Program-made: the position numbers and the translations under genes
DNA from: Amphiscolops sp. MND2022
Lineage: Eukaryota
Length of the DNA stretch: 64,000 bases
Assembly: GCA_964187785.1 (NCBI GenBank)
Contig: OZ076409.1
Location: 32,676,001-32,740,000, forward strand
Direction of reading: 5' to 3'
Shown: positions 1 through 51,058 of the stretch, piece by piece
Numbering within the stretch: position 1 is the stretch's first letter
Layout: every line of letters starts with the position of its first letter
Notes under the pieces: model-generated
What the model was told of the DNA's origin: nothing
Seen by the model: the letters and a program-made list of their open reading frames with translations, nothing else
Database searches by the model: none

Positions 1-119
1 TCGAGGAGAATATTTTGAACAAGAACATTTAAGAAGTGTATTCAACTTTGAATCTAAAACAAAACGTTAGAAAATATGAGTATTTTCCATAAATTTGAGT
101 AATTTTAAATTAGTAAATA

Positions 120-1595
120 ATGGCATTTCATAATTTTGGTTATAGTGTCGAGAGCTTGCAAAAAGATAAGATTGAGAATCTTGAAAAAGAATTAGAATCA
201 CAAACCAATTTAATTAACAAAACACTTAATGATATGTCCGATAAATTAGAAACGTTCAACAACCTGAAAATGCCGAAAGCGCTTTGCGTGTACACGAAAT
301 TCAATTCATCAACGGTGAAACAAATATGAAAATTAATGCAAAGTTATTCTTAGAGATAAATTAAAGAATAGAAGATATAAAATAAAATTTGAAACATTTA
401 GAACAAGATATTAAAAATAAATTACTAGAAAAGAAGAAGGAAATAATTTTGGATGCTGCCAAGTTAGTAGAAGAACAACAAACTATTTTACGTAATCACT
501 TCGAGAGAAACCTTTTTTCGGAATTGGAAAAATGTAAACGTGAAGCTGTCGAAGATAATATTCAATTACTATATAATAAAGAATAGTTTGATTTATTTGA
601 AAGTAAAGACCAAAGTTTTAATGCGTATCTAACCTTCACAAACCAATACTTGTTGGAACAAGACGGGAACGTCTAAAGTCGGCGCTATATCTAAGGCTCA
701 AAAAAGCGCTAAGTTTTTAAACTTGTAAAAGGGGGGACCCTTTCAGCTTTTCGAAAATTCAGTCTGTTGCAAAATATCAAAAAAATTGAAGGAGACAAAA
801 TAAATTTCCGGAATTTTTTTGAAGAAACTTTCGGAAAAAAACGAAAAATGAGAATTTTGAAACAGTCTCACAGTGCCGAAAACTAGAGAGGGGGGCCCTT
901 TGGGCTTTTTGAAACTTCAATTTGCTGCAAAATATTAAAAAACTTGAAGGGGGGACCGTTTGGCGACAAAAGAAAAACTTGAAAATTTTTTGAAAAAAAA
1001 TCAAAAAAAACGAAAAATGAGAATTTTGAAAGTCTGACAGTGCCGAAAAACTAGAAAGAGGGACCCTTTGGGCTTTTTGAAACTTCAATTTGCTGCAAAA
1101 TATTAAAAAACTTGAAGGGGGGACCGTTTGGCGACAAAAGAAAATTCGAATATAAAGTCGCACAGTGCCGAAAAAAATTCAAATGGGGGACCCTGTAGTC
1201 CCGTCCGGTTTTGTATCTTACGTTAAAAATTGAGTTCACGAAAGAGGGGACCCTTTGCAGTAACTCAGATGTGATTCCGCTTGCCGGTTCAGTACTTTTA
1301 GTATTTCTGTAAAAAGTGTCCACTACGCATACATTCTGTGGTCTGACAGAAAAAAAAAGAAAAAAAAATTGCCTCTGTAATAGTCGGGCTCATATTGATA
1401 AAATGCGCCGACTAAAAATACGGAACAAAAACACAAACATCAGATGGTGTGTATTATTTACCTGACCTACTCTATTCAACAAGACAAACCGTGTTGAATA
1501 GTTTGAAGAAAGACCTGTACAAAGATATTGTCGACCTTAAATATAGAATGAAACTAACCGATACTGAGCTCAATTTCATACTTTTTGAAAACTAA
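120..1595 (+). pseudogene. Polinton ORF of unknown function (coiled-coil-like), interrupted by HINE-like insert, copy 1
   Basis: ORF pieces 120..329 and 389..586 continue FDLFESKDQ...TNQYLLE. Removing 659-1415 restores the frame KYGTKTQTSDGVYYLPDLLY...LFEN* (stop 1593-1595). Confidence 0.6.
659..1415. mobile_element. Non-autonomous Helentron-associated (HINE/DINE-1-like) element, copy 1
   Basis: End hairpin AGACG-GGAA-CGTCT (661-674); subterminal inverted repeats AGTCGGCGC (677-685)/GCGCCGACT (1405-1413); partial extra IR TAGTCGG (1381); ~3 internal ~165-170 bp repeats; inserted in an A/T run with no TSD. Confidence 0.7.
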
Positions 1596-1639
1596 AAGTG
1601 TAAAAGTTTATCAATTTTTCAAATATCAAAGATTCCGTA

Positions 1640-2181
1640 AATGCAAATTAGAAACCAAGTTTTTAATATAAAAAATTGTGTGAAAAATTACAACGTAGTT
1701 TGAATCCAGATGGTTTTGATATACGATTGAAAGAAAAAATAGTTTTATTATTTCAATTCAAAATATAAAAAACTTGAAAAGTTTTATAATCAGGAAGCTG
1801 AAAAGTATAAAAATTAAGACATATAAAATTATAAACGGTTTAATTCAATGTTTTGATGGAGTTTTATTATTGGGTGTTTCTTAAACATGTATCACGTTAA
1901 GTGTTACCGGAGTGGGACTGGTTGTGGTACCCATCGCGAGTGGTGTAGGTGCAGGAGTATCCTTATTCAGTAAGCTTATTGGTGAGTATCTGAAAAGAAA
2001 AGAATAACACACTATTGAAATTTATACACTTGCTGGTGGAACTTTAATCAACACCCAAAAACTACACACAAAGTTTCTAAAAGACAATAAAGGAAATCTG
2101 AATGAATACAACAAACTAAAACAATTACATGATGTCTATAAAAACAATGAAACTAAACTAAATTCTGAGTTTACTTTTTAA
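1640..2181 (+). pseudogene. Polinton/adintovirus membrane-protein-like ORF (GasderminX-like), copy 1
   Basis: Manual translation GVLLLGVS*TCITLSVTGVGLVVVPIASGVGAGVSLFSKLIGEYLKRKE...TKFLKDNKGNLNEY: Gly-rich hydrophobic hairpin then basic helix, just upstream of the capsid gene. Boundaries approximate. Confidence 0.5.
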
Positions 2182-2255
2182 GGATAAACTTGTTTAGTAA
2201 AAAATTTGAACATAAATTTTAAAAATTGGTTTTATTAGTTTTTTTTCTAATATAA

Positions 2256-3500
2256 ATGGAGTTATTTTCATTGAAAATTAAACATGCTCTTGATAAACCT
2301 GTTCATAATTTTGATTTTATAAAGTATATTCCAAATAGTTTAGCTACAATCAAAAATAAAAGTTCAAACATTTCAATCAGTTTGCCAAGAGAAGACGCAT
2401 ATATTTGTTTACGAAATTCATACATATCAATAGATTTTGAATTAGTAAAAAATAATGACACAAGATATGCAGATAATGATCAAGTAGCACTAGTCAACTT
2501 TGCGCCTGTTGCCTAATTTAATGAAGCTCAGCTGACAACCGGTTTGGGGAAACATTTGGAAAAAGTTGACAACCTCCATTTTATAAGTATGATGCATAAA
2601 TTTTTTCCTTCCCAACAACAGACCAGCGAATTGATGTGTGGGTTTGACGAATCAGTCACTATCAGAAGACAAGAACCAACAAACAATAGGACAGAAAACG
2701 GAACATTCTTTGTGAATATCAAGCTTACTGAATTTTTTGGGTTTGCTGATCAAGAAAAAGTAACATATGGTTTGGGTTATACTCTTACTTTATAACGTAA
2801 CAACAACCACAATGTTATTTTCCGTGGTGCTGGGGTAGAAGCTGCAAAAATTGTTATATAAGATATAGGTTGGCATATTCCACACTTTACACCTAGCTTA
2901 GAAGACCAACAAATTATGATGGATCAGTTACTGAATAAAAATCCAACTGAATTGCCTTACAGGAAACGGATTGTTTTTAGAAAAGATGTAAACACTAAAA
3001 TTAATAGGACCTTTGACTTGGGAAATAGTGGAGAATCAGCGCGAACTTTCGTAATAGTTGGATTTCAAGCTAGAAATGAAATTGATTCGTAAACACATGA
3101 TAATGCAATTTTTGATCGTTTACCTATTTGAAATGCTGTTTGTAAAATAGGATCAAAAAATATCCTGTTGATGGAATTGAATTTGAGTATGATAAAGACA
3201 ACTACCGTGAAGCAAATCAAGAAATATAAAAATTCTATCAGTTAAAAAACGAAACTAACCTATTGAGGCCATCTATTGATTTGCATAATTTCAGGACAAA
3301 ATATAGTTTTTTTGTATTTGACTTATCCAAACAAGAAGATCATTTTGCGAGTCAATCTATCAGACTAGAATTTAAATTTAATGCTGCCATTGATGTAGCA
3401 GACTATATAGTTTATGTTCTGGTATTAACACCTAAGTAAAAAGGTACCAGTAATGATGTGCAAAGGCATTTCGATTTAATAAAAGAAATACGTTTATAAT
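2256..3500 (+). pseudogene. Polinton/adintovirus major capsid protein (double jelly roll), copy 1
   Basis: ~410 codons with in-frame stops; motifs LPREDAYICL, FFGFADQEKVTYG, WHIPHFTPS, FVIVGFQ, YPVDGI, FVFDLSKQE, IRLEFKF. Confidence 0.8.
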
Positions 3501-3663
3501 ATTTTATATAAAATGATAATTTTTTAATATTTATTAATAAAAGATAAGAATATAATATTTGATTGATGAAAAATATATATTAATATAAAAGAATACACAT
3601 GTCATATAAAGATATTGAACAATTTTATTTTAAATGATTTAAAGTTATAAAAGATGAGCTCGA

Positions 3664-6600
3664 TCACTTATCAGTTTTGAAAGCCGTTGATGTGGTACTT
3701 TTTTTCCGATACCAAACATTTAGGTATATGCCAAGCAAGCTTTGCTGTTTTTCTGTATCACAATTTTCAGTTACAGCATAGTCGAGTTCGCATAGTTCTT
3801 TTTGATATGAAAGTATTATTTTCAAACAATATAGACATGGACAATTGCCTTGTTGTGTGTGTTTATCCCATGGTAAACTTTGTATTGGATTTAAGTACAT
3901 ACGTTTATCATCAAAGCTAGTTTGTTTTGTTTTTCACCTATATTTGATGTAAGTTTGAACGAATTGACCAATTTGTAAATCTTGAACATTCAGAACTAAA
4001 CAAACAACGTATGTAATCATGACATTCAGGGGCTTTTTCTATTCCTTTTTGTTTTGCTTTTTGTACTAAGGTTTATCATACGCTTCGAGCCTTTGGTATG
4101 AAAAAGAAAATGATTTTGATCGTAAGGCTGTGAAACTGTCAAGTACTAATACCGTACTTGTTTCAATTTTCAATTTTCCTATACCTTTCGTGTTAATAGG
4201 ATCATATAATTCATGAGACTTATTTATATCACTAAAATCAAAGGCATCTTTGTTTTGTTGTAAAAAGTTTGTTAGTTTTTGGTTGTTTGCATCAAAACTT
4301 AGAACAAAACTGTCAGAGTCCATATAATGTAAATGTTCGCGGTCAAGCCCATACGGTTCTAAAGTATGATAATAAATTTCATACATTAATAGTTAATTTA
4401 AATCTAACACAGAGAAAACCAATTAAATTGGTTTAACAAAGACTGTTTTTTCTCTATCAAGTTTGTAGACACTAAACGTAGAACACCAACCCTCGATCAC
4501 CAACCACCTGCATCTTTGTTACTTTCATACCAATGTTGATGTAAAACTTGAACATCCTGTAGTGCATCCTATAGTTTTGTTTGTTTGTTAGGTCACACAC
4601 AAGCTTCTGGGCTGGTTTGTAAATCGGTTGTTCCATAAAATTCATATAATCTGAGAGCAACTCACATTTAGCTTCTTCTTGAAATGGACATAAAGGAAAG
4701 TTTTCAATTTTTTCTTTGATATGTTGTGGATATTCTAAATCACATTCTAATAACGGATCCATAATCATTATAATCTGGTATTTGTCTTAAATCTTCTACT
4801 AATATCTCTGGATTGTAAATATTTGTGTAATTGTTCGGATTGAAAGGTAACTTTTCGATTTCACCAGAAAGAAGATAACTCATACCCATCCATACATATT
4901 ATTTGCATCAATGTATAAGATTTGTTTATTGACATTCGATACAACATTCCTATTACCCATAACACTCGAAATTCTTCCACGTATATTGTTTTCTAAAAGT
5001 AATAATTATTCTTCATCTTTTATAAAATCTAAGTTGATTTTGATCATTTTTAAAACAGCTTTCCAGGTATACCCAGGAGCTGAGTATGAGTACAACGGAT
5101 TGATGCCGTACTCTCTCAGTGGATGTTTGCACAAACTTCTCAAAGACATCAGTCAATTGAAAAACATCCATTCTTAAGTGTAACATAGTTGATTCTTGTC
5201 CGTTTCTTTGTTAACCTTTTTAATATTTTCTTGTGTACGGATAATTTCTTCATCTGGAGGTGTTTCTTGTTTAAGTGTTGACCTAAAGTTTTCTTTTGTT
5301 AGATTTAATGGTTCTTCAAAATTACTAAGACCAAAGCATTCATAAGGATAAGCCATTTTCTTTTTTAATAATTCAGCATCCAGACACTTTTCATACATTC
5401 CGAAGGCGCTTTGCGCTTTTGGGAAACTGTTTATACTCCTAACTAATTGATCCAAACTAGAAGAAAGAAAACGTTATGAATCTAGGAAACTAAACAACCT
5501 ACTTGTACATTAACATAATTTTCCATTCACTTTGGAATTATTTTCGGTTCATACCCCATTTTGAAAGCTTGTGTTAGAAGTTGATCAAATATAAGATGAC
5601 AATCATACTCAGAAAAAATGTGGAAAAATATAGGAACAAAACTTGATTACTTTTGTTTTACATTTATGTTACATTCAGAATGGACTGCTCTTCTGTATTT
5701 TCCTGTCAAATGATCGTGGTCTCGAACTTTATCTATATGCGAAGCTCCTTTGGTATGCGAAGCCAGCGTTGCTCTGTTTTGTAAAAAATGCTCTTCGCAT
5801 AACCAACACACGTTGGATTGTTGGAATTTTACTTTTTGAGCAGTTATTTGTAGTGGTATATTTGTTTTAAAATAAGCCGATGCAAAATTTTCTAGTGTCA
5901 ACATCTCATTTATAAACCATTTTACACAACCTTCGCCGAAGTCTGAGTAATATGCGGAGCCAGCTTTGCTGTATTGATTTCCAATGGTGAAATTAGATTT
6001 TATCCTACAGCACTTGCAATTTGTTCAATTAATACTTTGGAGTCATGCGAAGCCAGCTTTGCTGTATTTTGAGGTTGGTTATTGCATTCGAAATCTGCCT
6101 GCATACACTCTAATAGGTAAAAGTATTTCAATGTGGTGGTCTTCTCATTTTAGATGGTCCTTCCAACTGAAACTGATTTTAGTTGGTTGCTGTTTTATAC
6201 ATCTTTCTCTTTGATCAATTGGAACCGGTTGTGAACTGAATGCTGTTATACATCTTCTACATACATGTGTCATGTGTGAGTCATCATTTATTAGACTATG
6301 CAATTTTGTTATCAGACAATAGTGATTTTCATACAATAACAAACCTATTTGTGGTTGTAAGATATTTTTGTTAATGTAAACTGGTGTTAAAATTGTTTAG
6401 TTTAATTCAAATACATTCATATTTTATCTATAAGGTCTTTCAAACTTAGGTATATCTTTAACTTTCATAGGGAATTCTAAACCTTCCAAACACAACGTAG
6501 ACATTTGAATAACATAGTTTGATATTTTATTTCTATTACCCTCAACTGGAAATAAATATGCTAAAAAACACCATAAAAACATAATTGATCATCATTTTTT

Positions 6601-6726
6601 ATAGTTATAAATGATTGGCTATTCTTATACTTTGGTGATAACTCAATTTAAGAACATGCTTTAATATCATTAACTTTAAATATTTCTAATACGGCTTCTT
6701 AAATTTCTTGAAATTGGAAACCTGAT
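3664..6726 (-). pseudogene. Protein-primed family B DNA polymerase, copy 1 (5' truncated, motif B deleted)
   Basis: DKVRDHDHLTG, YPYE, YIDANNMYGW (motif A), YMDSDSF (motif C), DDKRMYL; many frameshifts. Confidence 0.9.
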
Positions 6727-7500
6727 TGGAAAGAATTCAAATACAAACTCACTATACTATAAAGATGAGTGTTGGAGTACTGATTTGATAGAGTGGTCTA
6801 ATTTATCACAATACAAGAAAGATTTCGAATTTTTTTTTCAATTTTTGACAATCATACTAAATATGCATGGGCGATTCCTCTTAAAGGTAAGTCCAGAAAA
6901 AGTAGAACAACTGCAATAAAAAGTCTTATTGAAAAAGCCAAAAGAAAACATCATAAAATTTGGTCGGATAAAGCTAAATAGTTTTATCATAAAACATTTT
7001 TAGATTTCCTTAAAGAGCAAAACATTCAATTTTATTCAACTATTTCAGATTTGAAAGATGTTTTTGTTGAAAATTTCGATAGAACAATTTTAGATATTTT
7101 CAAAAAACCATGGTATATTGAAGGTAAAGAGTGTTGATTGAATAATTTTGATGCTTCTATTGAATTATATAATAACCGTGTCCATGGTACAACAAAAATG
7201 ACACTGTTTGAAGACAGTAACAATAAACTAATTCCTAGTTTTATTAATCATAATAATAATAAATTGCACAAGTTCCAAGTGGGAGATTTTGTAAGAGTTC
7301 CTGATAAACGCTATTTATATTGTAAAGGTCATACAACTAATTGGAACAGAGAACTTTCTGAAATACTTTAAATTTACAAAACGAGTCCAGTAACTTATAC
7401 TCTAGAAGATAAAAACAGAGAAATTGTTCGAGGAGAATATTTTGAACAAGAACATTTAAGAAGTGTATTCATCTTTGAATCTAAAACAAAACGTTAGAAA
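6727..7500 (+). pseudogene. Polinton-type rve (DDE) integrase, 5' truncated at the duplication junction; its 3' tail recurs at 1-70
   Basis: Manual translation WSTDLIE...DNHTKYAWAIPLK...IWSDK...VENFDRTI...YNNRVH...KFQVGDFVRV...KGHTTNW...PVTYTLED...GEYFEQE. Confidence 0.85.
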
Positions 7501-7546
7501 ATATGAGTATTTTCCATAAATTTGAGTACTTTTAAATTAGTAAATA

Positions 7547-9020
7547 ATGGCATTTCATAATTTTGGTTATAGTGTCGAGAGCTTGCAAAAAGATAAGATT
7601 GAGAATCTTGAAAGAGAATTAGAATCACAAACCAATTTAATTAACAAAACACTTAATGATATGTCCGATAAATTAGAAACGTTCAACAACCTGAAAATGC
7701 CGAAAGCGCTTTGCGTGTACACGAAATTCAATTCATCAACGGTGAAACTAATATGAAAATTAATGCAAAGTTATTCTTAGAGATAAATTAAAGAATAGAA
7801 GATATAAAATAAAATTTGAAACATTTAGAACAAGATATTAAAAATAAATTACTAGAAAAGAAGAAGGAAATAACTTTGGATGCTGCCAAGTTAGTAGAAG
7901 AACAACAAACTATTTTGCGTAATCACTTCGAGAGAAACCTTTTTTCGGAATTGGAAAAATGTAAACGTGAAGCTGTCGAAGATACTATTCAATTACTATG
8001 TAATAAAGAATAGTTTGATTTATTTGAAAGTAAAGACCAAAGTTTTAATGCGTATCTAACCTTCACAAACCAATACTTGTTGGAACAAGACGGGAACGTC
8101 TAAAGTCGGCGCTATATCTAAGGCTCAAAAAAGCGCTAAGTTTTTAAACTTGTAAAAGGGGGGACCCTTTCAGCTTTTTGAAAATTCAGTCTGTTGCAAA
8201 ATATCAAAAAAATTGAAGGAGACAAAAAAAATTCAGAAATTTTTTTGAAAAAACTTTCGAAAAAAACGAAAAATGAGAATTTTGAAACAGTCTCACAGTG
8301 CCGAAAACTAGAGAGGGGGGACCCTTTGGGCTTTTTGAAACTTCAGTTTGCTGTAAAATATCAAAAAACTTGAAGGGGGGACCGTTTGGCGACAAAAGAA
8401 AAATTTGAAAATTTTTTGAAAAAAAAATAAAAAAAACGAAAAATGAGAATTTTGAAAGTCTGACAGTGCCGAAAAACTAGAAAGAGGGAAACTTTGGGCT
8501 TTTTGAAACTTCAATTTGCTGCAAAATATTAAAAAACTTGAAGGGGGGACCGTTTGGCGACAAAAGAAAATTCGAAAAAAAGTCGCACAGTGCCGAAAAA
8601 AATTCAAATGGGGGACCCTGTAGTCCCGTCCGGTTTTGTATCTTACGTTAACAATTGAGTTCACGAAAGAGGGGACCCTTTGCAGTAACTCAGATGTGAT
8701 TCCGCTTGCCGGTTCAGTACTTTTAGTATTTCTGTAAAAAGTGTCCACTACGCATACATTCTGTGGTCTGACGAAAAAAAAAGAAAAAAAAACTTGCCTC
8801 TGTAATAGTCGGGCTCATTTTGATAAAATGCGCCGACTAAAAATACGGAACAAAAACACAAACATCAGATGGTGTGTATTGTTTACCTGACCTACTCTAT
8901 TCAACAAGACAAACCGTGTTGAATAGTTTGAAGAAAGACCTGTACAAAGATATTGTCGACCTTAAATATAGAAAGAAACTAACCGATACTGAGCTCAATT
9001 TCATACTTTTTGAAAACTAA
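7547..9020 (+). pseudogene. Polinton ORF of unknown function interrupted by HINE-like insert, copy 2
   Basis: Duplicate of 120-1595. Confidence 0.6.
8086..8840. mobile_element. HINE/DINE-1-like element, copy 2
   Basis: Duplicate of 659-1415 at the same insertion point. Confidence 0.7.
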
Positions 9021-9065
9021 AAGTGTAAAAGTTTATCAACTTTTCAAATATCAAAGATTCCGTAA

Positions 9066-9606
9066 ATGCAAATTAGAAACCAAGTTTTTAATATAAAAAG
9101 TTGTGTGAAAAATTACAACGTAGTTTGAATCCAGATGGTTTTGATATACGATTGAAAGAAAAAATAGTTTTTTTATTTCAATTCAAAATATAAAAAACTT
9201 GAAAAGTTTTATAATCAGGAAGCTGAAAAGTATAAAAATTAAGACATATAAAATTATAAACGGTTTAATTCAATGTTTTGATGGAGTTTTATTATTGGGT
9301 GTTTCTTAAACATGTATCACGTTAAGTGTTACCGGAGTGGGACTGGTTGTGGTACCCATCGCGAGTGGTGTAGGTGCAGGAGTATCCTTATTCAGTAAGC
9401 TTATTGGTGAGTATCTGAAAAGAAAAGAATAACACACTATTGAAATTTATACACTTGCTGGTGGAACTTTAATCAACACCCAAAAACTACACACAAAGTT
9501 TCTAAAAGACAATAAAGGAAATCTGAATGAATACAACAAACTAAAACAATTACATGATGTCTATAAAAACAATGAAACTAAACTAAAATCTGAGTTTACT
9601 TTTTAA
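9066..9606 (+). pseudogene. Membrane-protein-like (GasderminX-like) ORF, copy 2
   Basis: Duplicate of 1640-2181. Confidence 0.5.
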
Positions 9607-9680
9607 GGATAAACTTGTTTAGTAAAAAATATGAACATAAATTTTAAAAATTGGTTTTATTAGTTTTTTTTCTAATATAA

Positions 9681-10927
9681 ATGGAGTTATTTTCATTGAA
9701 AATTAAACATGCTCTTGATAAACCTGTTCATAATTTCGATTTTATAAAGTATATTCCAAATAGTTTAGCTACAATCAAAAATAAAAGTTCAAACATTTCA
9801 ATCAGTTTGCCAAGAGAAGACGCATATATTTGTTTACGAAATTCATACATATCAATAGATTTTGAATTAGTAAAAATTAATGACACAAGATATGCAGATA
9901 ATGATCAAGTAGCACTAGTCAACTTTGCGCCTGTTGCCTAATTTATTGAAGCTCAGCTGACAACCGGTTTGGGGAAACATTTGGAAAAAGTTGACAACCT
10001 CCATTTTATAAGTATAATGCATAAATTTTTTCCTTCCCAACAACAGACCAGCGAATTGATGTGTGGGTTTGACGAATCAGTCACTATCAGAAGACAAGAA
10101 CCAACAAACAATAGGACAGAAAAAGGAACATTCTTTGTGAATATCAAGCTTACTGAATTTTTTGGGTTTGCTGATCAAGAAAAAGTAACATATGGTTTGG
10201 GTTATACTCTTACTTTATAACGTAACAACAACCACAATGTTATTTTCCGTGGTGCTGGGGTAGAAGCTGCAAAAATTGTTATATAAGATATAGGTTGGCA
10301 TATTCCACACTTTACACCTAGCTTAGAAGACCAACAAATTATGATGGATCAGTTACTGAATAAAAATCCAACTGAATTGCCTTACAGGAAACGGATTGTT
10401 TTTAGAAAAGATGTAAACACTAAAATTAATAGGACCTTTGACTTGGGAAATAGTGGAGAATCAGCACGAACTTTCGTAATAGTTGGATTTCAAGCTAGAA
10501 ATGAAATTGATTCGCAAACACATGATAATGCAATTTTTGATCGTTTACCTATTTGAAATGCTGTTTGTAAAATAGGATCAAAAAAATATCCTGTTGATGG
10601 AATTGAATGTGAGTATGATAAAGACAACTACCGTGAAGCAAATCAAGAAATATAAAAATTCTATCAGTTAAAAAACGAAACTAACCTATTGAGGCCATCT
10701 ATTGATTTGCATAATTTCAGGACAAAATATAGTTTTTTTTTGTATTTGACTTATCCAAACAAGAAGATCATTTTGCGAGTCAACCTATCGGACTAGAATT
10801 TAAATTTAATGCTGCCATTGATGTAGCAGACTATATAGTTTATGTCCTGGTATTAACACCTAAGTAAAAAGGTACCAGTAATGATGTGCAAAGGCATTTC
10901 GATTTAATAAAAGAAATACGTTTATAA
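9681..10927 (+). pseudogene. Major capsid protein, copy 2
   Basis: ORFs 9681..9941, 9969..10220 and 10341..10556; duplicate of 2256-3500. Confidence 0.8.
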
Positions 10928-11091
10928 TATTTTATATAAAATGATAATTTTTTAATATTTATTAATAAAAGATAAGAATATAATATTTGATTGATGAAAA
11001 ATACATATTAATATAAAAGAATACACATGTCATATAAAGATATTGGACAATTTTATTTTAAATGATTCAAAGTTATAAAAGATGAGCTCGA

Positions 11092-14000
11092 TCACTTATC
11101 AGTTTTGAAAGCCGTTGATGTGGTACTTTTTTTCCGATACCAAACATTTAGGTATATGCCAAGCAAGCTTTGCTGTTTTTCTGTATCACAATTTTCAGTT
11201 ACAGCATAGTCGAGTTCGCATAGTTCTTTTTGATATGAAAGTATTATTTTCAAACAATATAGACATGGACAATTGCCTTGTTGTGTGTGTTTATCCCATG
11301 GTAAACTTTGTATTGGATTTAAGTACATACGTTTATCATCAAAGCTAGTTTGTTTTGTTTTTCACCTATATTTGATGTAAGTTTGAACGAATTGACCAAT
11401 TTGTAAATCTTGAACATTCAGAACTAAACAAACAACGTATGTAATCATGACATTCAGGGGCTTTTTCTATTCCTTTTTGTTTTGCTTTTTGTACTAAGGT
11501 TTATCATACGCTTCGAGCCTTTGGTATGAAAAATAAAATGATTTTGATCGTAAGGCTGTGAAGCTGTCAAGTACTAATACCGTACTTGTTTCAATTTTCA
11601 ATTTTCCTATACCTTTCGTGTTAATAGGATCATATAATTCATGCGACTTATTTATATCACTAAAATCAAAGTCATCTTTGTTTTGTTGTAAAAAGTTTGT
11701 TAGTTTTTGGTTGTTTGCATCAAAACTTAGAACAAAACTGTCAGAGTCCATATAATGTAAGTGTTCGCGGTCAAGCCCATACGGTTCTAAAGTATGATAA
11801 TAAATTTCATACATTAATAGTTTATTTAATTCTAACACAGAGAAAACCAATTAAATTGGTTTAACAAAGACTGTTTTTTCTCTATCAAGTTTGTAGACAC
11901 TAAACGTAGAACACCAACCCTCGATTCCGTTGAAACTTAACTTGGATTGTCTTTTTCTTATTTGGTCTATTTGAGAATGATCAATGAATTCTAGATTGGT
12001 TCTTTCTCTTACATTTTCCATAGTTTTACCCAAGAAACCATTGTTCATTAACTTGTACAGGTCTTTTCCAAATTTTGTTTCTGCTTTGGTACGCTTTTGC
12101 GTGTTATGATGAATGTATTTTGCTAACCATTTCGTTTGAAGCGGTAGATTGTATGCATCTTTGTTACTTTCATACCAATGTTGATGTAAAACTTGAACAT
12201 CCTGTAGTGCATCCTATAGTTTTGTTTGTTTGTTAGGTCACACACAAGCTTCTGGGCTGGTTTGTAAATCGGTTGTTCCATAAAATTCATATAATCTGAG
12301 AGCAACTCACATTTAGCTTCTTCTTGAAATGGACATAAAGGAAAGTTTTCAATTTTTTCTTTGATATGTTGTGGATATTCTAAATCACATTCTAATAACG
12401 GATCCATAATCATTATAATCTGGTATTTGTCTTAAATCTTCTACTAATATCTCTGGATTATAAATATTTGTGTAATTGTTCGGATTGAAAGGTAACTCTT
12501 CGATTTCACCAGAAAGAAGATAACTCATACCCATCCATACAGATTATTTGCATCAATGTATAAGATTTGTTTATTGACATTCGATACAACATTCCTATCA
12601 CCCATAACACTCGAAATTCTTCCACGTATATTGTTTTCTAAAAGTAATAATTATTCTTTATCTTTTATAAAATCTAAGTTGATTTTGATCATTTTTAAAA
12701 CAGCTTTCTAGGTATACCCAGGAGCTGAGTATGAGTACAACGGATTGATGCCGTACTCTCTCAGTGGATGTTTGCACAAAGTTCTCAAAGACATCAGTCA
12801 ATTGAAAAACATCCATTCTTAAGTGTAACATAGTTGATTCTTGTCCGTTTTTTTGTTAACCTTTTTAATATTTTCTTGTGTACGGATAATTTCTTCATCT
12901 GGAGGGGTTTCTTGTTTAAGTGTTGACCTAAAGTTTTCTTTTGTTAGATTTAATGGTTCTTCAAAATTACTAAGATCAAAGCATTAATAAGGATAAGCCA
13001 TTTTCTTTTTTTAATAATTCAGCATCCAGACAATTTTCATACATTCCGAAGGCGCTTTGCGCTTTTGCGAAACTGTTTATACTCCTAACTAATTGATCCA
13101 AACTAGAAGAAAGAAAACGTTATGAATCTAGGAAACTAAACAACCTACTTGTACATTAACATAATTTTCCATTCACTTTGGAATTATTTTCGGTTCATAC
13201 CCCATTTTGAAAGCTTGTGTTAGAAGTTGATCAAATATAAGATGACAATCATACTCAGAAAAAATGTGGAAAAATATAGGAACAAAACTTGATTACTTTT
13301 GTTTTACATTTATGTTACATTCAGAATGGACTGCTCTTCTGTATTTTCCTGTCAAATGATCGTGGTCTCGAACTTTATCTATATGCGAAGCTCCTTTGGT
13401 ATGCGAAGCCAGCGTTGCTCTGTTTTGTAAAAAATGCTCTTCGCATAACCAACACACGTTGGATTGTTGGAATTTTACTTTTTGAGCAGTTATTTGTAGT
13501 GGTATATTTGTTTTAAAATAAGCCGATGCAAAATTTTCTAGTGTCAACATCTCATTTATAAACCATTTTACACAACCTTCGCCGAAGTCTGAGTAATATG
13601 CGGAGCCAGCTTTGCTGTTTTGATTTCCAATGGTGAAATTAGATTTTATCCTACAGCACTTGCAATTTGTTTAATTAATACTTTGGAGTCATGCGAAGCC
13701 AGCTTTGCTGTATTTTGAGGTTGGTTATTGCATTCGAAATCTGCCTCCATACACTCTAATAGGTAAAAGTATTTCAATGTGGTGGTCTTCTCATTTTAGA
13801 TGGTCCTTCCAACTGAAACTGATTTTAGTTGGTTGCTGTTTTATACATCTTTCTCTTTGATCAATTGGAACCGGTTGTGAACTGAATGCTGTTATACATC
13901 TTCTACATACATGTTTCATGTGTGAGTCATCATTTATTTGACTATGCAATTTTGTTATTAGACAATAGTGATTTTCATACAATAACAAACCTATTTGTGG

Positions 14001-14977
14001 TTGTAAGATACTTTTGTTAATGTAAACTGGTGTTAAAATTGTTTAGTTTAATTCAAATACATTCATATTTTATCTATAAGGTCTTTCAAACTTAGGTATA
14101 TCTTTAACTTTCATAGGGAATTCTAAACCTTCCAAACACAACGTAGACATTTGAATAACATAGTTTGATATTTTATTTCTAATACTCTCAACTGGAAATA
14201 AATATGCTAAAAAACACCATAAAAACATAATTGATCATCATTTTTTATAGTTATAAATGATTGGCTATTCTTATACTTTGGTGATAACTCAATTTAAGAA
14301 CATGCTTTAATATCATTAACTTTAAATATTTCTAATACGGCTTCTTAAATTTCTTGAAATTGGAAACCTGATCGTTCCATTTATTCATCATCTAATCTCT
14401 GTATAAATGTGGTATGAATTGAATAATAATCAAAAGAGTAATTAAAATTTATTTCTCATTTTACCCATTTGTGAATTACATTTTCTTCTTCGTTGATGTG
14501 TTTTATTTATAAACTTAGCCAAATATCTCAATTGCTATTTATATCGGGACACGTAATTTTTACTAAGTAATTCATTTATGTGATATTCAAGATTGTTCAT
14601 ATTTGGAATTTTTTGAAATTTCATGTTTTTTGATTCACAATTATTTTTAAACCGAAGGTGCATCGCATACCGAAGGTGCTTCGCGTACCTTGATAAAAAT
14701 TACTTTGTTGATTTTCCTGTAAATGAATTTGACTTTGGAAATATCTTGTTTTATTAGTTATATTTTTACCACAACCTTCACACCAAACAAGCAGTTGTTT
14801 AGTTTTATTCTTGTGATCATCTGATTTTAAGTGTGAATCTTCATCTGATAGAAGCATACATAAATTAAATTTTTTACAATAATATTGATTTAATTTTTCG
14901 AGAAGTTTCACTAATTTTATATGATCGGTTTTGAAGGATTTTTTATAATCTAAACTACACATTCTACATTTTTCCAT
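11092..14977 (-). pseudogene. Protein-primed PolB, copy 2, full length with N-terminal Cys/His (zinc-finger-like) region
   Basis: Starts MEKCRMCSLDY...CEGCGK; motifs DHDHLTG, IDANN, LYKLMNNGFLGKTMENVR (motif B), YMDSDSF. Confidence 0.9.
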
Positions 14978-15619
14978 TTCTATTTAATACAGAAAAACTA
15001 GTTTAATTAAAAGTTATAAAAAATTAGTGAAAAATATTTTTTTAATTTTGTGGATGTGAGGTATTAAATTTTTCAACAAATTCTTGGAATGATAAATATT
15101 TCACTTAGGAAAAAATTTCATTGAAGTGTTTTTCTAAGCTTTGCTTGTATTAGTTATTATCTTACAGAAAATAAATATATTTTAAAATTTTCCAACAAAA
15201 ATTTATTTTTCTCACCTATGGATTCCAGGTGAGAAAATTTGCCAGAGATAAAAGTTTTTCATATTTTAGATTTCTAAAATTTTATTTCCCTAATATTACA
15301 CAGCAGAGCCAACCATTCTCGAGAAAAAACCCATTTTTACACCTATTTTGACAGGTGCTGATTGCTGGGTTGAATGCATGAAAAACCCTTAGAAGCAGTA
15401 TGTCTGTAACTTTTGATTATCTACAACTTTTATACCTTACGTTTTTCAATAAAATTATTTCCCGTTGAGATATTGAGTGAACTATACATTCCCATGTATT
15501 AACATTAAATATAAAAGATTTTGTGAAATGAATTGAATAATTTTTCCGAGATCTTTGTATCGGTTTTTTCAAGTTTGAGATTTTTGTATCGGTTTTTTCA
15601 TTTGTCTCGGAAAATTCAA

Positions 15620-15673
15620 CATGCGAAGCGCTTTCGGCATGCGAAGCGCCTTTGGCATGCGAAGCGGCATTGG
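15620..15673. repeat. 3 x 18-bp tandem repeat CATGCGAAGCGCYTTYGG in the Polinton terminal region
   Basis: catgcgaagcgctttcgg catgcgaagcgcctttgg catgcgaagcggcattgg. Confidence 0.9.
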
Positions 15674-18049
15674 AATGTGACGTTCCACTTGATGTTATTC
15701 CAGTTTTATATTAATACCACGCACTTGTTTCCACTTGAATGCTACTTTCAGTCCAAAAAATGTTTGCTACACAAATTTTCTCTATTACCATATTGGAGGG
15801 TAGTGAATTTTTCCTTGTAACAAACTTTTTCAATGACAATTTTTGTTCAGTGATTTTTGATTTTGGTAATTTTTTGGTTGCGAAAAACGCTAATTTTTGA
15901 TGATTTGCCTTGAAAATATGCTTAATTTTGATAGTCTGACTGACTGATTATTTTTTTGTAAACATGGTAAAAAAAATACCTATTTTTGATGGTTTGGTTT
16001 ATCAGGATCAGGAATTCGTATACTACTCTCGAGGACATTTTGTTATATTGTATCAGTTTTGTACGAATCAAAATGTGTCTTCTGGTTTTCTACCATTCTA
16101 TTTCAATTCCTATCTCAATTTATGAGGTTCAGCTTTTTTGCATACTCTTCTAATTTTATAGACGCTTTTCGACGAAACAGGCTCTCCGTCAACAAAGGTG
16201 ATTTTAATTAACACTCAATTTGTTTTTTCTCTGCCAGAAAAAAAATCAAAATTTTCAATATTGGAGCCAAGATTTTCACTAATAAAGGTTAAGTTCTGTT
16301 CTTACAGTATTGACCAGAAAACTATGTATCATTAAACTTTTCAAATTATAGTGGAATTAAAATGTTTAAATGAAGCAACAAATGCTCAATTATTACCCGA
16401 AAAAACTTGCCCAGAACCATCTATAAAATTTTGGTAGGAATTACATCCTCTTCATTAAAAATACAGCACTACCGATGCAAAATCAATGATTTCACTTTAT
16501 TTGAGTAAACACTTTTAAACGATCTATCAAAAGTGGCCGGAAAAATTATCGTTCCTGGGGAACAATTAACTGTTGATTTTCCTCGAAATTACCATTGAAA
16601 AGGTCGTTTCTAGCACTGAAGAGGCTGTATGCAGTTACAATGAGATGTTATGTACTTTTTGTTGCTGGTACGGTGGACGCTTGAGAATTAATCAGAGAGG
16701 CTGCGAATGAATGAGAGAAGGCTCTTGTAATTGTATATAACACAGATTAGAAGATAGGCCTAGTTAGCACTACTCTACATCTTTTGAAGCTGAGAAAAAA
16801 TTTTCCCCGTGCTTATTCTTTGAGGCCCCAGCATTTGCGATATTTTCGCTGTGCCTCTTGACATTGTTGATTTTTCCCGCTGATTTTGTTTCCTGGGATG
16901 AATTACCGCAATCTGAGTTGCCGATTTGTCTTTTCCCAATCAAAAAGTATTCCCGTCAAAAGGGGAGGAGAGAAGGGATAATCTAACGTGTCTGCTAAAT
17001 CAAATGCGCCATCGCTTCTTCCGTGCGCTCGCCCGCAAGCACGCGACACCTTTTTTCACTGACTAAAATTTCACAAAGCTTTTTTTAAAAAGTGAGACTG
17101 AGAAGAGAACACAGATAAAATGTTGGATTGCTAAGGAAGCTTTTCAAGTACACGTAACTGCTGGAAATTCTTACGGACGCTTGTCAGTTTAGAGTGTGAA
17201 CATATAATTCACATGGGTCCCAATGCACTTTTCTAACTTTAAACGAACTGCTTGGGTGAACTCAGTGACCAACGTGTGCCCTTGAAGGAGAGTTGAATAA
17301 TTGAAAATTCTTGTGGACGCTTCAATCTTCATCTGCTACTGAGAAATTCATGAAGAGGTGATAGTTTATTGTAGAACAGACGTTAAATCAAGTTACCATA
17401 ACAAGAAGAGGAAAAACTGAAAAAGGAAAAGCAGAAAACGCGAACTAATTGTTTGGATGGGTTGTTTCTGAAGTAGCGTTTTAAATTAGCCTTTTGTTTC
17501 AACATTCAGGTCAATCGAACTTCTATTCTACAAACTTTATTGAAAAAATGACACAAAGTTGTCAGAAACGAGGTTTTGTTACTTTTCAGTTTTTGAGGTG
17601 CTCCCGAGGGTGACTCTAACATGAAATTGTGTTTATATCTTCTGCAACGACTACTGGATACCGGACCGTGTTGTTGTTTAGTATTTGAACTACTTTGTGC
17701 CAGTGAAAAAGCAGTATAAAAGCGTCAGACATTTTGAATAATTTGGACCTTTTGACAAATTTGTCCCAACAAAACTGCAAGTTTTTAAAAGCCTGCTGCT
17801 AAGCTAGTTGTGGTGGATCTTTCTGATGCTTTAAATTCTTCTACGTTTTCTAATTTCGACCAAAAAAATCGTTCAAATCAACAAAAATTGAAAAATTATT
17901 CGACTAGTTTGAGTTATTTTGGAGCAGTTTCCCAAGATACCATTTGATACAGCTTTTGTTCGTTTTTATTATTCTAACACAAGAAATCACTCGACACGAC
18001 AACTTAACAAAATTTGCAAGTTAAAAACGAAATTCAAAACATGGAAAAC

Positions 18050-18990: not shown

Positions 18991-19703
18991 TGTAACGACC
19001 GGCTAGCGACGCACATCTAGGAAGAGGGACAATGCCTAGGATGCTTAAACAGGAGACCGTTGTCTTACTACATACCTAGACACTAGTTTTTGGTCCCAAA
19101 ATGGTCTCCTAATGGTCCCTGACGTCCAGGGAGGCTTCTCAAATTAGAGTTCCGAAGCGACGCGCCTGCACTCTCAAAGTCCGGACACGCCCCACAAGCC
19201 TGTAAAAACGATTCCTAAGGTTTCTAGTACGTTCCTACGAGTTCCTAGATACTTCTGAGGTCAAAACAGTGTTTAGCTGGAAAACATCGTATTTGGTGAA
19301 TGAGATCTAAAATGACCTAGAAGGTCATACATTATCCAAATACTCCGAGGAAAATGGGGAAATATTAAAGAAAACGGGGATAGGCCCCAATTACGTTACA
19401 GTTTTCAGTCCATCATCCATATTTGGCCTCTGGCAATGGTCTGCAGATTTTGTTGATTTCCCAAGGAGATGGCACAACATTCCGATAATCTTTCTGCTGA
19501 TGTTTCTTCATCTTCTGGCAATTCTTCATCTTTTTCTGCAACTTTTTCACACGTGCTCTGTTTCTTGCTCGCTCTCCGCGTTGTCTCTCTTTTTGTTCAT
19601 TCTTTTCGTACCTGCTAGGTCGGCCATTTTGATTCTTCTATTTTTATATCGCACATTTCGAATTTTTCATCGAAATTTTGTCATGCCAGTGGCTGACGTT
19701 ACA
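18991..19703 (-). repeat. Gypsy 3' LTR
   Basis: Direct repeat of 37049-37764; TG...CA ends. Confidence 0.95.
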
Positions 19704-20251
19704 TCCTGCATGGGCCGTAGTTTGTCGTCCTCGGCAAACGAGAGGATGCTCATACCCAGAGGGTAATAGCAAAGCTGAGAGTCTATTGATTACCTAAGGA
19801 AGGTTTCGTTTTTTCTTACTTGTTTCCTGTCAACCTCCAAATTTCCTGTCATTTTCTCGTGTATTAGTATTTATCAGTTTTACGATATATTAAAATGTTC
19901 GACAAAACTAGAATCACGACAGGCGATTTCAAAAATTTTATGCAGTTTTCACTGGTCTAAGTTCAAATTTTTTTTCTAGGAAGTGTCCTTGCACTTCTCA
20001 AGTAACAACATTCAGGTCTTGGTAGCAGTATTTAATTACCAAACTAGAGAGGGTGGGCACTGGCTCAGGGCCCACCCACATAGTATAGTTTAACTAAAAT
20101 TTTAAGCACATAACAAGTATTGCTTAGGAACTCAGTGTACGTAGCATCAACTAAAATGAAATGGTCTACAACCATTAAGATGAAGTTGTATTCGTTTGAG
20201 AGTGAGTTTGGCTTTCATTTGGTGAACGGGTCAGCATTGGTTACAGCTCTT

Positions 20252-24480: not shown

Positions 24481-24751
24481 GGGCGAAGCAACAGGACAAA
24501 ACTGAAGAGCAAGTTACACATGAACATAGAGAAGGTGTAAGAAATACGTTAAGTGAGTTAAGAAAGGAACATAAAGGGTTGAAACTTAAAAGATGAAGGA
24601 GTGGCTGTTAAGAAAATTTGCAGTTTTATTGAACGCAGTCTTTAAAAGCCTATGGATTGATTGGCGCGTATTAAGAAAATTAAAAAGGAAAGTGGGGAAG
24701 TAGACAGGAGAAACAAGGAGGGCGGGCCTCTGGCCCTGTGTCCAAGACAAC

Positions 24752-31545: not shown

Positions 31546-31551
31546 TTGTTT

Positions 31552-37014: not shown

Positions 37015-37032
37015 ATCCCTCTGTGGTCGCCA
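37015..37032 (-). other. Primer-binding site, tRNA-Arg-like
   Basis: Minus strand TGGCGACCACAGAGGGAT is complementary to a tRNA 3' end ...AUCCCUCUGUGGUCGCCA; 16 nt from the 5' LTR. Confidence 0.7.
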
Positions 37033-37048
37033 TAAAAACTATTCCAGA

Positions 37049-37764: not shown

Positions 37765-38133
37765 CATTTTGGGGCGTTTTTCTGATGAATAATCGCATTC
37801 AAGTCAAAAAAGTCTACTGGACACCGAATTCTTTCCTGGTTGAATGTTTAAACATTCTAATCCACGAAGTCTTTCGCAAATGTGACCAAAATTGCATAAA
37901 AACGGTAAAAGTCGAAAGTATGTGTGATCCTTCAACTTGGATATAATATTGGAACATGGCAAATTTTAATTTAAAACCCGGCTCATTTAAATGTTTTCCT
38001 TTCTCCTATGAAATATGGGCGGAAAATAAAAAAGCTACTATCAGAGCTTGTAAAATGGCTTTGGTTCCACATACTGGGTGTTTGCATGCATGTCTGAAAA
38101 GTAGTTTCTACATCTGTAACATGCATGTTGCAG

Positions 38134-51039: not shown

Positions 51040-51041
51040 TT

Positions 51042-51058
51042 TGGTCCGTCGGCCCGGA
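51042..51058 (+). other. Primer-binding site, tRNA-Tyr-like
   Basis: TGGTCCGTCGGCCCGGA, 2 nt after the LTR; resembles the TGGTCCTTCGAGCCGGA PBS common in BEL/Pao elements. Confidence 0.65.

What the first reader, a model, noticed from the sequence alone, without database searches (positions are those of the whole stretch)
270..15673. A tiny 18-21 bp GCGAAGC hairpin element scattered in-frame through the Polinton genes
Seen: in an AT-rich element, one GC-rich motif family (YATGCGAAGC followed by CAGCTTTGCT or GCYTTYGG) recurs in both orientations at 270-290, 3728-3746, ~4077-4100, 5396-5416, 5736-5773 (x2), 5951-5970, 6044-6063, their copy-2 equivalents, 14651-14689 (x2), and as a 3x tandem near the terminus (15620-15673). 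Where the frame can be followed it adds whole codons (ATLASH-TKGASH just before DKVRDHDH; AKLASH; AQSAFGM; TRSTFG-MRCTFG). I did not see it outside element A. Established: d(GCGAAGC) forms an exceptionally stable mini-hairpin, and in-frame palindromic insertions are known in bacteria (Rickettsia palindromic elements). Inference: a micro-element spread while the Polinton was still active and was filtered for frame preservation. It may be copied by template switching during strand-displacement replication, or act as an ssDNA-protection or packaging signal.
Basis: partly seen in the sequence, partly recalled or inferred. Interest (0 to 1): 0.75.

Follow-up and report, generated by a model that had tools for sequence, protein, structure and literature searches.

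The report
Tiny hairpin inserts in Polinton polymerase
A virus-like jumping gene (a Polinton) in this genome, and its intact relatives elsewhere, carry the same tiny 12-21 base hairpin-shaped DNA pieces slotted into flexible parts of their DNA polymerase gene without breaking it, which looks like one of the smallest kinds of selfish DNA and a setting in which we found no earlier report.

Summary
A decayed Polinton, partly duplicated in tandem, holds 14 non-redundant units at 10 sites, 8 of them in the polymerase (pPolB) gene; none lies in the other 48 kb. Each unit puts one mini-hairpin on each strand. All 8 window insertions of 4 or more codons against an intact homologue fall at units. Intact homologous pPolBs carry 4-7 residue insertions that are present or absent between copies up to 99.8% identical. 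Their peptides fit a 12-nt form, GC-GNA-GC-TNC-GC, or the window's 18-21-nt forms. Exact fit to the relaxed 12-mer: 41 of 176 pPolB indel clusters, 2 of 8 capsid, 0 of 42 in a gypsy control; distant Polintons show no excess. Sites avoid helix and strand cores (2 of 21). Best reading: a lineage-specific selfish micro-element, copied during Polinton replication, shuffled by recombination and filtered by selection. The mechanism is inferred, and homologue evidence is protein-only. Closest known: mitochondrial double-hairpin elements and GC clusters, and bacterial in-frame palindromes. Ten literature searches and four look-ups of this scan's notes found no report in Polintons.

The parts
1..7427 (.). 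Tandem copy 1 of part of the decayed Polinton (end of integrase to the middle of pPolB, then an integrase fragment); lacks about 230 bp that copy 2 has
   Evidence: 98.6% over 4502 and 99.0% over 2219 columns to copy 2; repeats D15-D18
6745..7500 (+). Retroviral-type integrase fragment, broken by stops; no unit
   Evidence: PF00665 E 3.8e-5, below the curated cut-off
7540..8100 (+). Unknown coiled-coil ORF, broken; holds site A
   Evidence: translation; no Pfam match
7697..7717 (+). Site A unit (copy 1: 270-290), ATGCCGAAAGCGCTTTGCGTG; reads MPKALC in one frame, like the IPKALC/IPKVLC insert seen 6 times in homologous pPolBs; insertion status and frame untested
8156..8578 (.). 168-bp tandem repeat region (copy 1: 835-1144), not part of the unit family
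9681..10880 (+). Major capsid protein gene (double jelly roll), broken; no unit
   Evidence: PF21738 E 2.6e-10; 64-72% identical to 120 listed homologues
11076..14975 (-). Protein-primed DNA polymerase B gene with an Endonuclease VII-like zinc domain; decayed (15-16 frameshifts, 16-17 stops); holds 8 sites
   Evidence: 63-66% identity to four intact homologues; homologue model matches phi29 polymerase; PF02945
11156..11176 (+). Site B, 21-nt unit (2 differences from G; copy 1: 3728-3748), read as QQSLLG; 6-codon gap against P0048 and P0094, no clean gap against P0102 and P0230
11201..11221 (-).
11505..11528 (+). Site C, degenerate unit with its second arm reversed (copy 1: 4077-4100); about 6-7 codons, with a frameshift about 13 nt downstream, so its frame is the least certain in pPolB
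13042..13062 (+). Site D unit (copy 1: 5396-5416), CCGAAGG + GCTTTGC arms, read as AQSAFG; net 6 codons
13382..13421 (+). Site E, an 18-nt plus a 21-nt unit (copy 1: 5736-5775) in the loop between CxxC and DHDH of the Endonuclease VII-like domain; 15 codons longer than P0102 and P0048
13598..13618 (+). Site F, 21-nt unit with a GGA loop (copy 1: 5952-5972), read as SKAGSA; 7-codon insertion, frameshift about 12 nt upstream in the gene
13691..13711 (+). Site G, 21-nt unit (copy 1: 6045-6065), read as TAKLASH; 7-codon insertion; one homologue has TAKLASH at the same site
14651..14689 (-). Site H, two tandem 18-nt units (TRSTFG-MRCTFG) in the variable N-terminal part; three homologues carry MQSTFG here
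15620..15677 (+). Site I, 3.2 tandem 18-nt units in non-coding DNA about 650 bp upstream of pPolB; possible template reservoir (inferred)
16022..16029 (+). Candidate right end of the Polinton (ACTACT; the Polinton terminal motif is recalled); unconfirmed, a second candidate lies at 16769
   Evidence: the other end is not in the window

Best explanation
The units are a selfish micro-element of one Polinton lineage. SHOWN in window DNA: each unit is a dyad, a purine-loop mini-hairpin arm on one strand followed by one on the other, 18 or 21 nt long, read in all three frames and both orientations. SHOWN in proteins: related 4-7 residue blocks are optional at about 20 loop sites of intact pPolBs and at one capsid loop, and they recombine between element lineages. 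INFERRED step 1 (new sites): during strand-displacement replication the polymerase or a repair step briefly switches to a resident unit on displaced single-stranded DNA, copies it whole and returns; tandem arrays then grow by slippage. INFERRED step 2 (spread): displaced strands of filled and empty genomes anneal, and the extra bases loop out and fold into a nuclease-resistant mini-hairpin whichever strand carries them. This would explain why each strand has its own arm, and the loop would escape removal or be copied across. INFERRED step 3 (filter): in a gene-dense element only unit lengths divisible by three, landing in loops, survive. The window's copy later died, and its frameshifts are decay that is separate from the units.
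For: Whole-unit copying: one 21-mer recurs at 5 sites with 0-5 differences, including bases outside the arms, and nowhere else at 5 or fewer. Insertions: 8 of 8 window insertions of 4 or more codons lie within 25 nt of a unit, a zone covering 15% of the gene; 7 of these were at units named beforehand. Recent and polymorphic: P0204/P0119 are 99.69% identical and P0200/P0203 99.84%, and each pair differs by a 4-residue unit. Defined length: 40 of 85 likely-insertion clusters are 4 aa. 22 of 85 back-translate exactly to GCGNAGCTNCGC, against 1.1-2.4% of control windows and 0.6% of shuffled peptides. Polinton-specific: 41 of 176 pPolB, 2 of 8 capsid, 0 of 42 gypsy clusters. Lineage-specific: 1.96 per 1000 aa against 0.18 shuffled in 230 family proteins, 0.32 against 0.36 in 149 distant pPolBs. 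Mini-hairpin rather than one long stem: arms with GC..GC and CC..GG stems are mixed in one unit (13385, 14670, 13046, 15641), which keeps each short stem and breaks a long one; the loop's middle base varies (GAA and GGA in the window; AQLR, AELR, GVAS in proteins). Filter: 2 of 21 sites in helix or strand cores against 38% of bonds (p 0.004). Recombination: GQSFA plus a linked flank residue occurs in P0202 and P0204 on a background otherwise like that of empty P0200, P0203 and P0206. 6 of 10 insertion characters conflict with amino-acid markers more (0.67-0.94, one at 1.0, at 60-300 columns; a seventh at 0.62) than markers do with each other (0.37-0.39). Chemistry from papers (passages): GCGNAGC and CCGAAGG mini-hairpins are stable, resist 3' exonuclease and bind SSB poorly (PMC13037366); a 26-bp palindrome is poorly repaired in heteroduplex DNA (PMC5736917).
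Against: No DNA was obtained for any homologue, so the 12-nt form, its junctions and any target duplication are inferred from peptides. The motif was read off those same peptides. Protein databases show only in-frame events, so frame filtering is tested only on the 8 window sites, whose unit lengths are themselves multiples of three. 57 of 85 clusters do not fit the relaxed 12-mer exactly; some fit longer forms, others are ordinary duplications or deletions. Gains cannot be told from precise losses, and markers in these proteins recombine freely anyway; 3 of 10 insertions conflict less than markers do at 60-300 columns, so drive is not shown. 6 of 8 pPolB units have a frameshift within 35 nt (p 0.016; 2 of 8 within 15 nt, p 0.52), unexplained. 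Any insertion prefers loops. Nearest-neighbour folding gives no unusual stability (z from +1.6 to -2.0 for 15 of 15 strands); that model has no special term for sheared G-A pairs (own knowledge). The Endonuclease VII-like motif is also in 113 of 149 distant pPolBs that lack the inserts, so it cannot alone explain the lineage limit.
Confidence: 0.62

Rival explanations
1. Recurrent de novo lesion rather than a copied element: at a break, each 3' end is extended until it ends in an exonuclease-proof mini-hairpin. The two tails anneal by their terminal GC and are filled in, giving GC-GNA-GC-TNC-GC afresh each time. This would be a mutational signature of this lineage's polymerase or repair.
For: It predicts the geometry exactly: hairpin first on both strands, arms overlapping by GC, arms varying independently. 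Mini-hairpin ends resist 3' exonuclease (PMC13037366 passages).
Against: The 21-mer recurs with its outer bases and spacer at 5 window sites, and TAKLASH, TAKLPSG and QSTFG recur in homologues. Clades favour different forms: no 12-mer in 8 of 33 full-length proteins, yet 5 of these 8 carry the long form. Both points suggest copying from resident templates.
Confidence: 0.15
2. A useful cis signal kept by selection: dispersed hairpins on both strands serve as priming sites, SSB-free landmarks, nuclease protection or packaging marks for the displaced strands.
For: GCGAAAGC, CCGAAGG and GCGGAGC hairpins act at phage G4 and plasmid ssiA priming sites and at N4 promoters (PMC13037366 passages). A 3x array sits near the candidate terminus. 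Short stems are kept through compensatory change.
Against: Nearly every site is optional between near-identical intact copies. The capsid gene has almost none. Density follows protein tolerance, not spacing along the genome. Distant Polintons do without. Stem conservation is equally expected if the fold is needed for copying.
Confidence: 0.12
3. A host micro-repeat or host repair bias that hits integrated DNA in general; it shows up in the Polinton only because that DNA is neutral.
For: The window's copy is long dead, and units lie near frameshifts more than expected at 35 nt. No genome-wide scan was possible.
Against: No family unit in 48 kb of flanking DNA. 0 of 42 gypsy indel clusters fit. 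Inserts are shared by many intact copies and kept in frame and in loops, which needs selection on an active element.
Confidence: 0.06
4. Local slippage, chance or assembly error: short duplications and GC-rich codons in variable loops only look like a family.
For: Some indels are plain duplications (5 of 85 clusters flagged). The tandem arrays at H and I, and REATREATH in homologues, fit slippage. The 7.4-kb duplication may be an assembly artefact (untested).
Against: Most inserts do not copy their flanks. The enrichment over shuffles is large. One 21-mer occurs at five unrelated sites in three frames.
Confidence: 0.05

Closest known systems
Mitochondrial double-hairpin elements (Allomyces), repetitive hairpin-forming elements of sponge mtDNA, and yeast GC clusters (PMC2800124 and PMC4478555, passages read)
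   Same: Short GC-rich hairpin or double-hairpin inserts in an AT-rich replicon; optional between close relatives; tolerated inside genes away from structurally important parts; associated with recombination and co-conversion; mechanism unsettled.
   Different: Organellar rather than in a nuclear virus-like element; larger (GC42 is 42 nt); mostly intergenic; GC clusters have a target duplication, not testable here. Here the arms are 7-nt GNA/AAA mini-hairpins, one per strand.
Rickettsia palindromic elements and intragenic REP repeats (PMC3733652, passages read)
   Same: Palindromic DNA inserted in frame in working genes, among them DNA polymerase and repair genes.
   Different: Bacterial chromosomes; REPs are 20-40 bp, GTAG- or CGTC-tagged and often linked to RAYT transposases. 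The units here have no such tag, and no such enzyme was seen in the part of the element present.
Small dispersed repeats (SDR) of Nostoc (named in a passage of PMC5861425; the 21-27 nt size and in-gene insertions are recalled, the original paper was not held) and MUSE1 of Podospora mtDNA (11 bp; recalled, from no call)
   Same: Mobile repeats in the same very small size range, nested and tandem copies, mobility thought to rest on recombination (recalled).
   Different: Different sequences and hosts; neither is known from a eukaryotic DNA virus or transposon, as far as the searches reached.
Tandem repeats of archaeal Borg elements (PMC9879509, passages read)
   Same: Fast-evolving inserts in ORFs of a linear, terminally repeated replicon with its own PolB; all genic unit lengths divisible by three; nearly absent from the host.
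   Different: Borg repeats are A-rich, tandem and arise independently at each locus from flanking seeds; the units here are GC-rich, dispersed and one sequence family.
Polinton/Maverick elements with nuclease domains in pPolB (PMC11161782 and bioRxiv 10.1101/2023.08.22.554363, passages read)
   Same: The carrier is an ordinary Polinton: pPolB, integrase, double jelly-roll capsid, and an HNH-type domain inside pPolB.
   Different: The passages describe whole-domain insertions (HNH, VSR, homing endonucleases). The nematode preprint has 0 occurrences of 'hairpin' or 'palindrom' in its main text.

Membership tests
Polinton/Maverick (carrier) | Protein-primed family B polymerase | tested here: met
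   63-66% identity to intact homologues; the model of homologue P0109 (pLDDT 83.6) has phi29 polymerase as its 9 best PDB matches
Polinton/Maverick (carrier) | Retroviral-type integrase and double jelly-roll capsid protein | tested here: met
   PF00665 fragment (E 3.8e-5, under the cut-off) and PF21738 (E 2.6e-10)
Polinton/Maverick (carrier) | Terminal inverted repeats and 5-8 bp target duplication | tested here: inconclusive
   Only one end can lie in the window; ACTACT at 16022 and 16769; no partner arm
Polinton/Maverick (carrier) | Packaging ATPase, protease, minor capsid protein | not tested
   Not recognised among the frames scanned; probably outside the window
GNA mini-hairpin (d(GCGNAGC) class) | Two-pair G/C stem closing a G-N-A loop | tested here: met
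   8 GCGNAGC in the non-redundant element against 0.35 expected, plus CCGAAGG arms; many second arms have an AAA loop, which PMC13037366 does not count as a GNA mini-hairpin
GNA mini-hairpin (d(GCGNAGC) class) | Exceptional thermal and nuclease stability in its sequence context | not testable with these tools
   ViennaRNA DNA folding shows nothing unusual; needs melting and exonuclease assays
REP/RPE repeats | GTAG or CGTC end tag and RAYT-type HUH transposase | tested here: not met
   No such tag at the ends of the 14 units; no HUH domain in the Pfam scans, which did not cover a whole element
REP/RPE repeats | In-frame insertion in working genes | tested here: met
Mitochondrial double-hairpin elements / GC clusters | Two adjacent hairpins, GC-rich, optional between relatives | tested here: met
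Mitochondrial double-hairpin elements / GC clusters | Residence in mitochondrial DNA | tested here: not met
   The carrier is a Polinton next to a gypsy retrotransposon and a host permease exon, read in the standard code
MITE / DNA transposon derivative | Terminal inverted repeats recognised by a transposase, with target duplication, 70-300 bp | tested here: not met
   Units are 12-21 nt; target duplication could not be tested without empty-allele DNA

The most novel reading that the evidence does not exclude
A 12-21 nt DNA parasite of a virus-like element that drives itself using only its carrier's enzymes. Its two-strand mini-hairpin design makes the looped-out insert win in heteroduplexes formed between displaced Polinton strands, possibly nicked by the Endonuclease VII-like domain of the same polymerase it invades. 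This would be molecular drive with no dedicated transposase and no coding capacity, still active, and a source of new loop peptides in a viral polymerase.
Probability: 0.3. Interest if true: 0.88.

Novelty: new variant of a known kind. Interest (0 to 1): 0.7.

Why it matters
How very short palindromic repeats move is a long-open question for mitochondrial hairpin elements, GC clusters and bacterial in-frame palindromes; the papers read leave the mechanism unsettled. Here the carrier encodes its own polymerase and a structure-specific nuclease-like domain. Hundreds of near-identical intact copies with filled and empty alleles exist in public assemblies, and the unit is short enough to test with oligonucleotides and one purified enzyme. 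That makes the question directly testable. It also shows Polinton copies recombining freely, as co-replicating viruses would, gives markers for dating copies, and is a route by which new loop sequence enters a conserved enzyme.

Tried and rejected
No whole genome is held, so no genome-wide scan. No sequencing run was listed for 8700-16200 (no evidence either way), so no reads were laid. Searches for DNA of relatives with P0048 gave no locus in viral contigs or JGI metagenomes. The 21-mer gave 0 viral hits and 1 metagenome hit in 52% GC DNA with no further unit, taken as chance. A doubled 12-mer gave 16 viral contigs of 51-66% GC, each with a single pair; they were not identified and are not counted as relatives. 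The first protein count was inflated by the native RGAAH motif; it was redone with RGA[APST] matches dropped, though a few native variants (RRAAH, REAAH, RGAVH) remained. A catalytic-motif count (0 of 230) came from a wrong spacing in my pattern and was redone (174 of 230; 113 of 149). The tree is the quick tree, and its '410' column was mis-scored by a pattern that also hit site 60; one search used a corrected pattern. Nearest-neighbour folding was uninformative. A single long stem was rejected as the conserved structure because arms with different stems are combined. A requirement for a GC target site was considered from two protein pairs by hand and not supported; it needs DNA. The Nostoc SDR paper was not held. 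Four look-ups of this scan's notes showed nothing on this element; the eight notes listed concern other features. The host organism was not determined. Supplementary files of the papers were not opened and could mention such inserts.
Full report
1. What lies at the coordinates. The first 16 kb of the window (about 30% GC) is a decayed Polinton. In order it holds an integrase fragment (PF00665), an unknown coiled-coil ORF, a 168-bp repeat, a membrane-protein-like ORF, a double jelly-roll capsid gene (PF21738) and, on the minus strand, a protein-primed polymerase gene at 14975-11076. About 7 kb of it is present twice in tandem at 98.6-99.0% identity, so the 'copy-2 equivalents' are not independent. 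The polymerase gene has 15-16 frameshifts and 16-17 stops against four intact homologues. The host was not determined; no genome is held.

2. The observation. All named sites exist. Counting once, there are 14 units at 10 sites: A (7697), B (11156), B' (11201, new), C (11505), D (13042), E (two, 13382-13421), F (13598), G (13691), H (two, 14651-14689) and I (three, 15620-15677). Eight sites are in pPolB. A pattern 'purine-loop mini-hairpin on the plus strand, then one on the minus strand' occurs 7 times in 6731-16030 against 0.01 expected; 6 of the 7 are family units. This pattern was written after seeing the data. Outside the element it gives 4 hits against 0.77, none like the family. One 21-mer recurs at 5 non-redundant sites with 0, 1, 2, 2 and 5 differences, and its best outside matches have 6.

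3. Anatomy. Read 5' to 3' on either strand, a unit starts with a hairpin arm and ends with the complement of the other strand's arm. Arms are GCGAAGC, GCGGAGC, GCAAAGC, CCGAAGG or CCAAAGG, and arms with different stems are combined in one unit. This keeps each 2-4 bp stem while spoiling a single long stem, so the small hairpins are the likely conserved feature (inference). ViennaRNA sees nothing special in 15 of 15 strands. The stability claim rests on PMC13037366 (passages), which reports that only GNA loops form such hairpins, so AAA-loop arms are ordinary short hairpins. The 21-mer is read in three frames (TAKLASH, SKAGSA, QQSLLG) and once on the other strand (CELDYAV).

4. Are they insertions, and in frame? 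Against P0102 the window's gene has 13 insertions. 8 are 4 codons or longer (5, 4, 7, 7, 15, 5, 7, 7), and all 8 lie within 25 nt of a unit, a zone that covers 15% of the gene. One of the 8 is how B' was found. Site B shows a 6-codon gap against two of four references only. At G, F, E, D, H, B and B', aligned codons in one frame flank the unit on both sides; C has a break about 13 nt away and is less sure; A is untested. No frameshift is inside a unit, but that has a 42% chance anyway. 6 of 8 units have a frameshift within 35 nt (p 0.016), which I cannot explain.

5. Relatives. A search with the site-E frame gave 214 proteins, 120 listed, at 48-63% identity. Cluster members brought the set to 230, 33 of them over 1150 aa. 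Among 1925 pairs at 93% or more identity (167 of 230 proteins), 117 of 244 indel rows are 4 residues long. I dropped 37 rows under 3 aa, set apart 31 rows where the filled allele was commoner, and collapsed the other 176 to 85 clusters, 40 of them 4 aa. 22 of 85 back-translate exactly to GCGNAGCTNCGC and 28 of 85 to GCRNAGCTNYGC, against 1-3% of control windows and 0.6-1.7% of shuffled peptides. The peptides (REAA, GEAA, REAT, GVAS; AQLR, AELR; QSFA, RSFA) are the three frames of that self-complementary 12-mer. Longer ones (TQSAFG, MQSTFG, TAKLPSG, EGASH, IPKALC) match the window's 18-21-nt forms. The motif was read from these peptides, so the negative controls carry the weight. With the same procedure at 85% identity, exact fits were 41 of 176 clusters in pPolB, 2 of 8 in 120 capsid proteins and 0 of 42 in 120 homologues of the window's gypsy polyprotein. 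Four contig lengths are shared between the gypsy and Polinton lists, which suggests common assemblies. After dropping the native RGAAH motif, family proteins have 1.96 matches per 1000 aa against 0.18 shuffled; 149 distant pPolBs (32-47% identity) have 0.32 against 0.36. 25 of 33 full-length proteins carry 1-7 12-mer matches. The other 8 form one clade in a quick tree, and 5 of them carry the long form. Pairs at 99.7-99.8% identity differ by a unit, so gain or loss is recent.

6. Where they land. On an AlphaFold model of P0109 (60-sequence alignment, pLDDT 83.6; best matches phi29 polymerase), 2 of 21 hand-mapped sites are inside helix or strand cores against 38% of bonds (p 0.004). 10 of 17 sites past residue 200 lie where most distant homologues also vary in length, against 21% of positions. 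This shows a tolerance filter; it is not special to this element.

7. Movement between lineages. GQSFA with a linked flank residue appears on several backgrounds, including P0202 and P0204, whose neighbours on both sides match empty P0200, P0203 and P0206. In 25 full-length proteins, 58 amino-acid markers are mutually incompatible at 0.33-0.39 beyond 60 columns, so copies recombine widely. At 60-300 columns, 7 of 10 insertion characters are more incompatible (0.62-1.0) and 3 less (0.0-0.14). The characters are not independent, and gain cannot be told from precise loss: this is suggestive of extra mobility, not proof of drive.

8. Mechanism. I favour (0.62) a selfish micro-element: templated copying of whole units to new sites during strand-displacement replication, slippage to make tandems, spread by recombination with hairpin-protected loops, and selection for lengths divisible by three in loops. 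Support from papers (passages only): mini-hairpins resist 3' exonuclease and bind SSB poorly (PMC13037366); a palindromic insert is poorly repaired in heteroduplex DNA (PMC5736917); T4 endonuclease VII nicks bulges and branched DNA (PMC10956419). The polymerase has an Endonuclease VII-like domain (PF02945 in 6 of 6 proteins scanned, above or near the cut-off in 3) with its motif intact in 174 of 230 family proteins. It is also intact in 113 of 149 distant ones, so it may assist but cannot explain the lineage limit. Reannealing of displaced strands in protein-primed viruses is recalled knowledge. Rivals: de novo joining of hairpin-capped ends (0.15), a selected cis signal (0.12), a host process (0.06), slippage or chance (0.05).

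9. Comparison and novelty. It works like the invasive hairpin elements of mitochondria (PMC2800124, PMC4478555; passages) and the in-frame palindromes of bacteria (PMC3733652), and it shares the multiple-of-three rule with Borg repeats (PMC9879509). It is not a member of any of them by sequence, tag, size or replicon. Nostoc SDRs and Podospora MUSE1 are closest in size (largely recalled). Ten full-text searches (listings and abstracts seen) returned no paper on such inserts in Polintons. In the two Polinton papers searched by term I saw only whole-domain insertions. The library lacks most subscription journals and Repbase reports, and supplements were not opened. Verdict: observation confirmed, interpretation partly supported and extended; a new variant of a known kind; interest 0.70. 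The decisive gap is DNA of filled and empty alleles.

Noticed in passing
window 1-14370: A 7.4-7.6 kb tandem duplication inside the dead Polinton, 98.6-99.0% identical, with about 230 bp missing from copy 1; a recent duplication or an assembly artefact.
   Followed up: partly
window 11076-14975: Frameshifts lie within 35 nt of 6 of 8 units (p 0.016), though none is inside one; possibly hairpin-linked mutagenesis, alignment placement or chance.
   Followed up: partly
window 835-1144 and 8156-8578: A 168-bp tandem repeat with GGGGGACC motifs between the coiled-coil ORF and the next ORF of the Polinton.
   Followed up: no
window 8860-9600 (+): Broken ORF with a hydrophobic stretch like a membrane anchor just upstream of the capsid gene; no Pfam match.
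   Followed up: no
window about 19400-37760 (-): A gypsy-type LTR retrotransposon (protease, RT, RNase H, integrase) with probable LTRs at 19400 and 37461 (97% over 300 nt). It is unusually long (about 18 kb) and has extra long ORFs with no Pfam match at 21159-26816.
   Followed up: partly
window 40316-40526: A near-perfect inverted repeat with 105-nt arms and a 1-nt spacer.
   Followed up: no
window 37947-38432 (+): An amino-acid permease-like exon, probably a host gene (PF13520 E 5.9e-6, just under the cut-off).
   Followed up: no
window 50648-56564: Direct repeats at 50648 and 56265 (94% over 300 nt) bracket broken ORFs with a weak aspartyl-protease match and a 24-bp tandem array at 51156; probably a second, decayed LTR element.
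   Followed up: no
window 58660-61440 (-): Two long ORFs (314 and 512 aa) with no Pfam match; their ends recall a tyrosine-recombinase-like element (recalled impression, untested).
   Followed up: no
window 61922-64000 (-): An open frame of at least 692 codons made of 57-bp repeats (K/P/A/G/E-rich 19-residue units).
   Followed up: no
L002, L003, L005, L009, L012, L013, L015 and L004, L010, L014 (match at about 1170-1525): Two groups of related GC-rich viral contigs each share a doubled GC-RNA-GC-TNY-GC motif in conserved flanks; perhaps a replication or priming signal; not identified.
   Followed up: no
P0119, P0038, P0049 and other family pPolBs: At least 33 near-full-length, apparently intact pPolBs, 120 listed capsid proteins and clusters of up to 307 members point to a large, recently active Polinton family whose copies recombine heavily.
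   Followed up: partly
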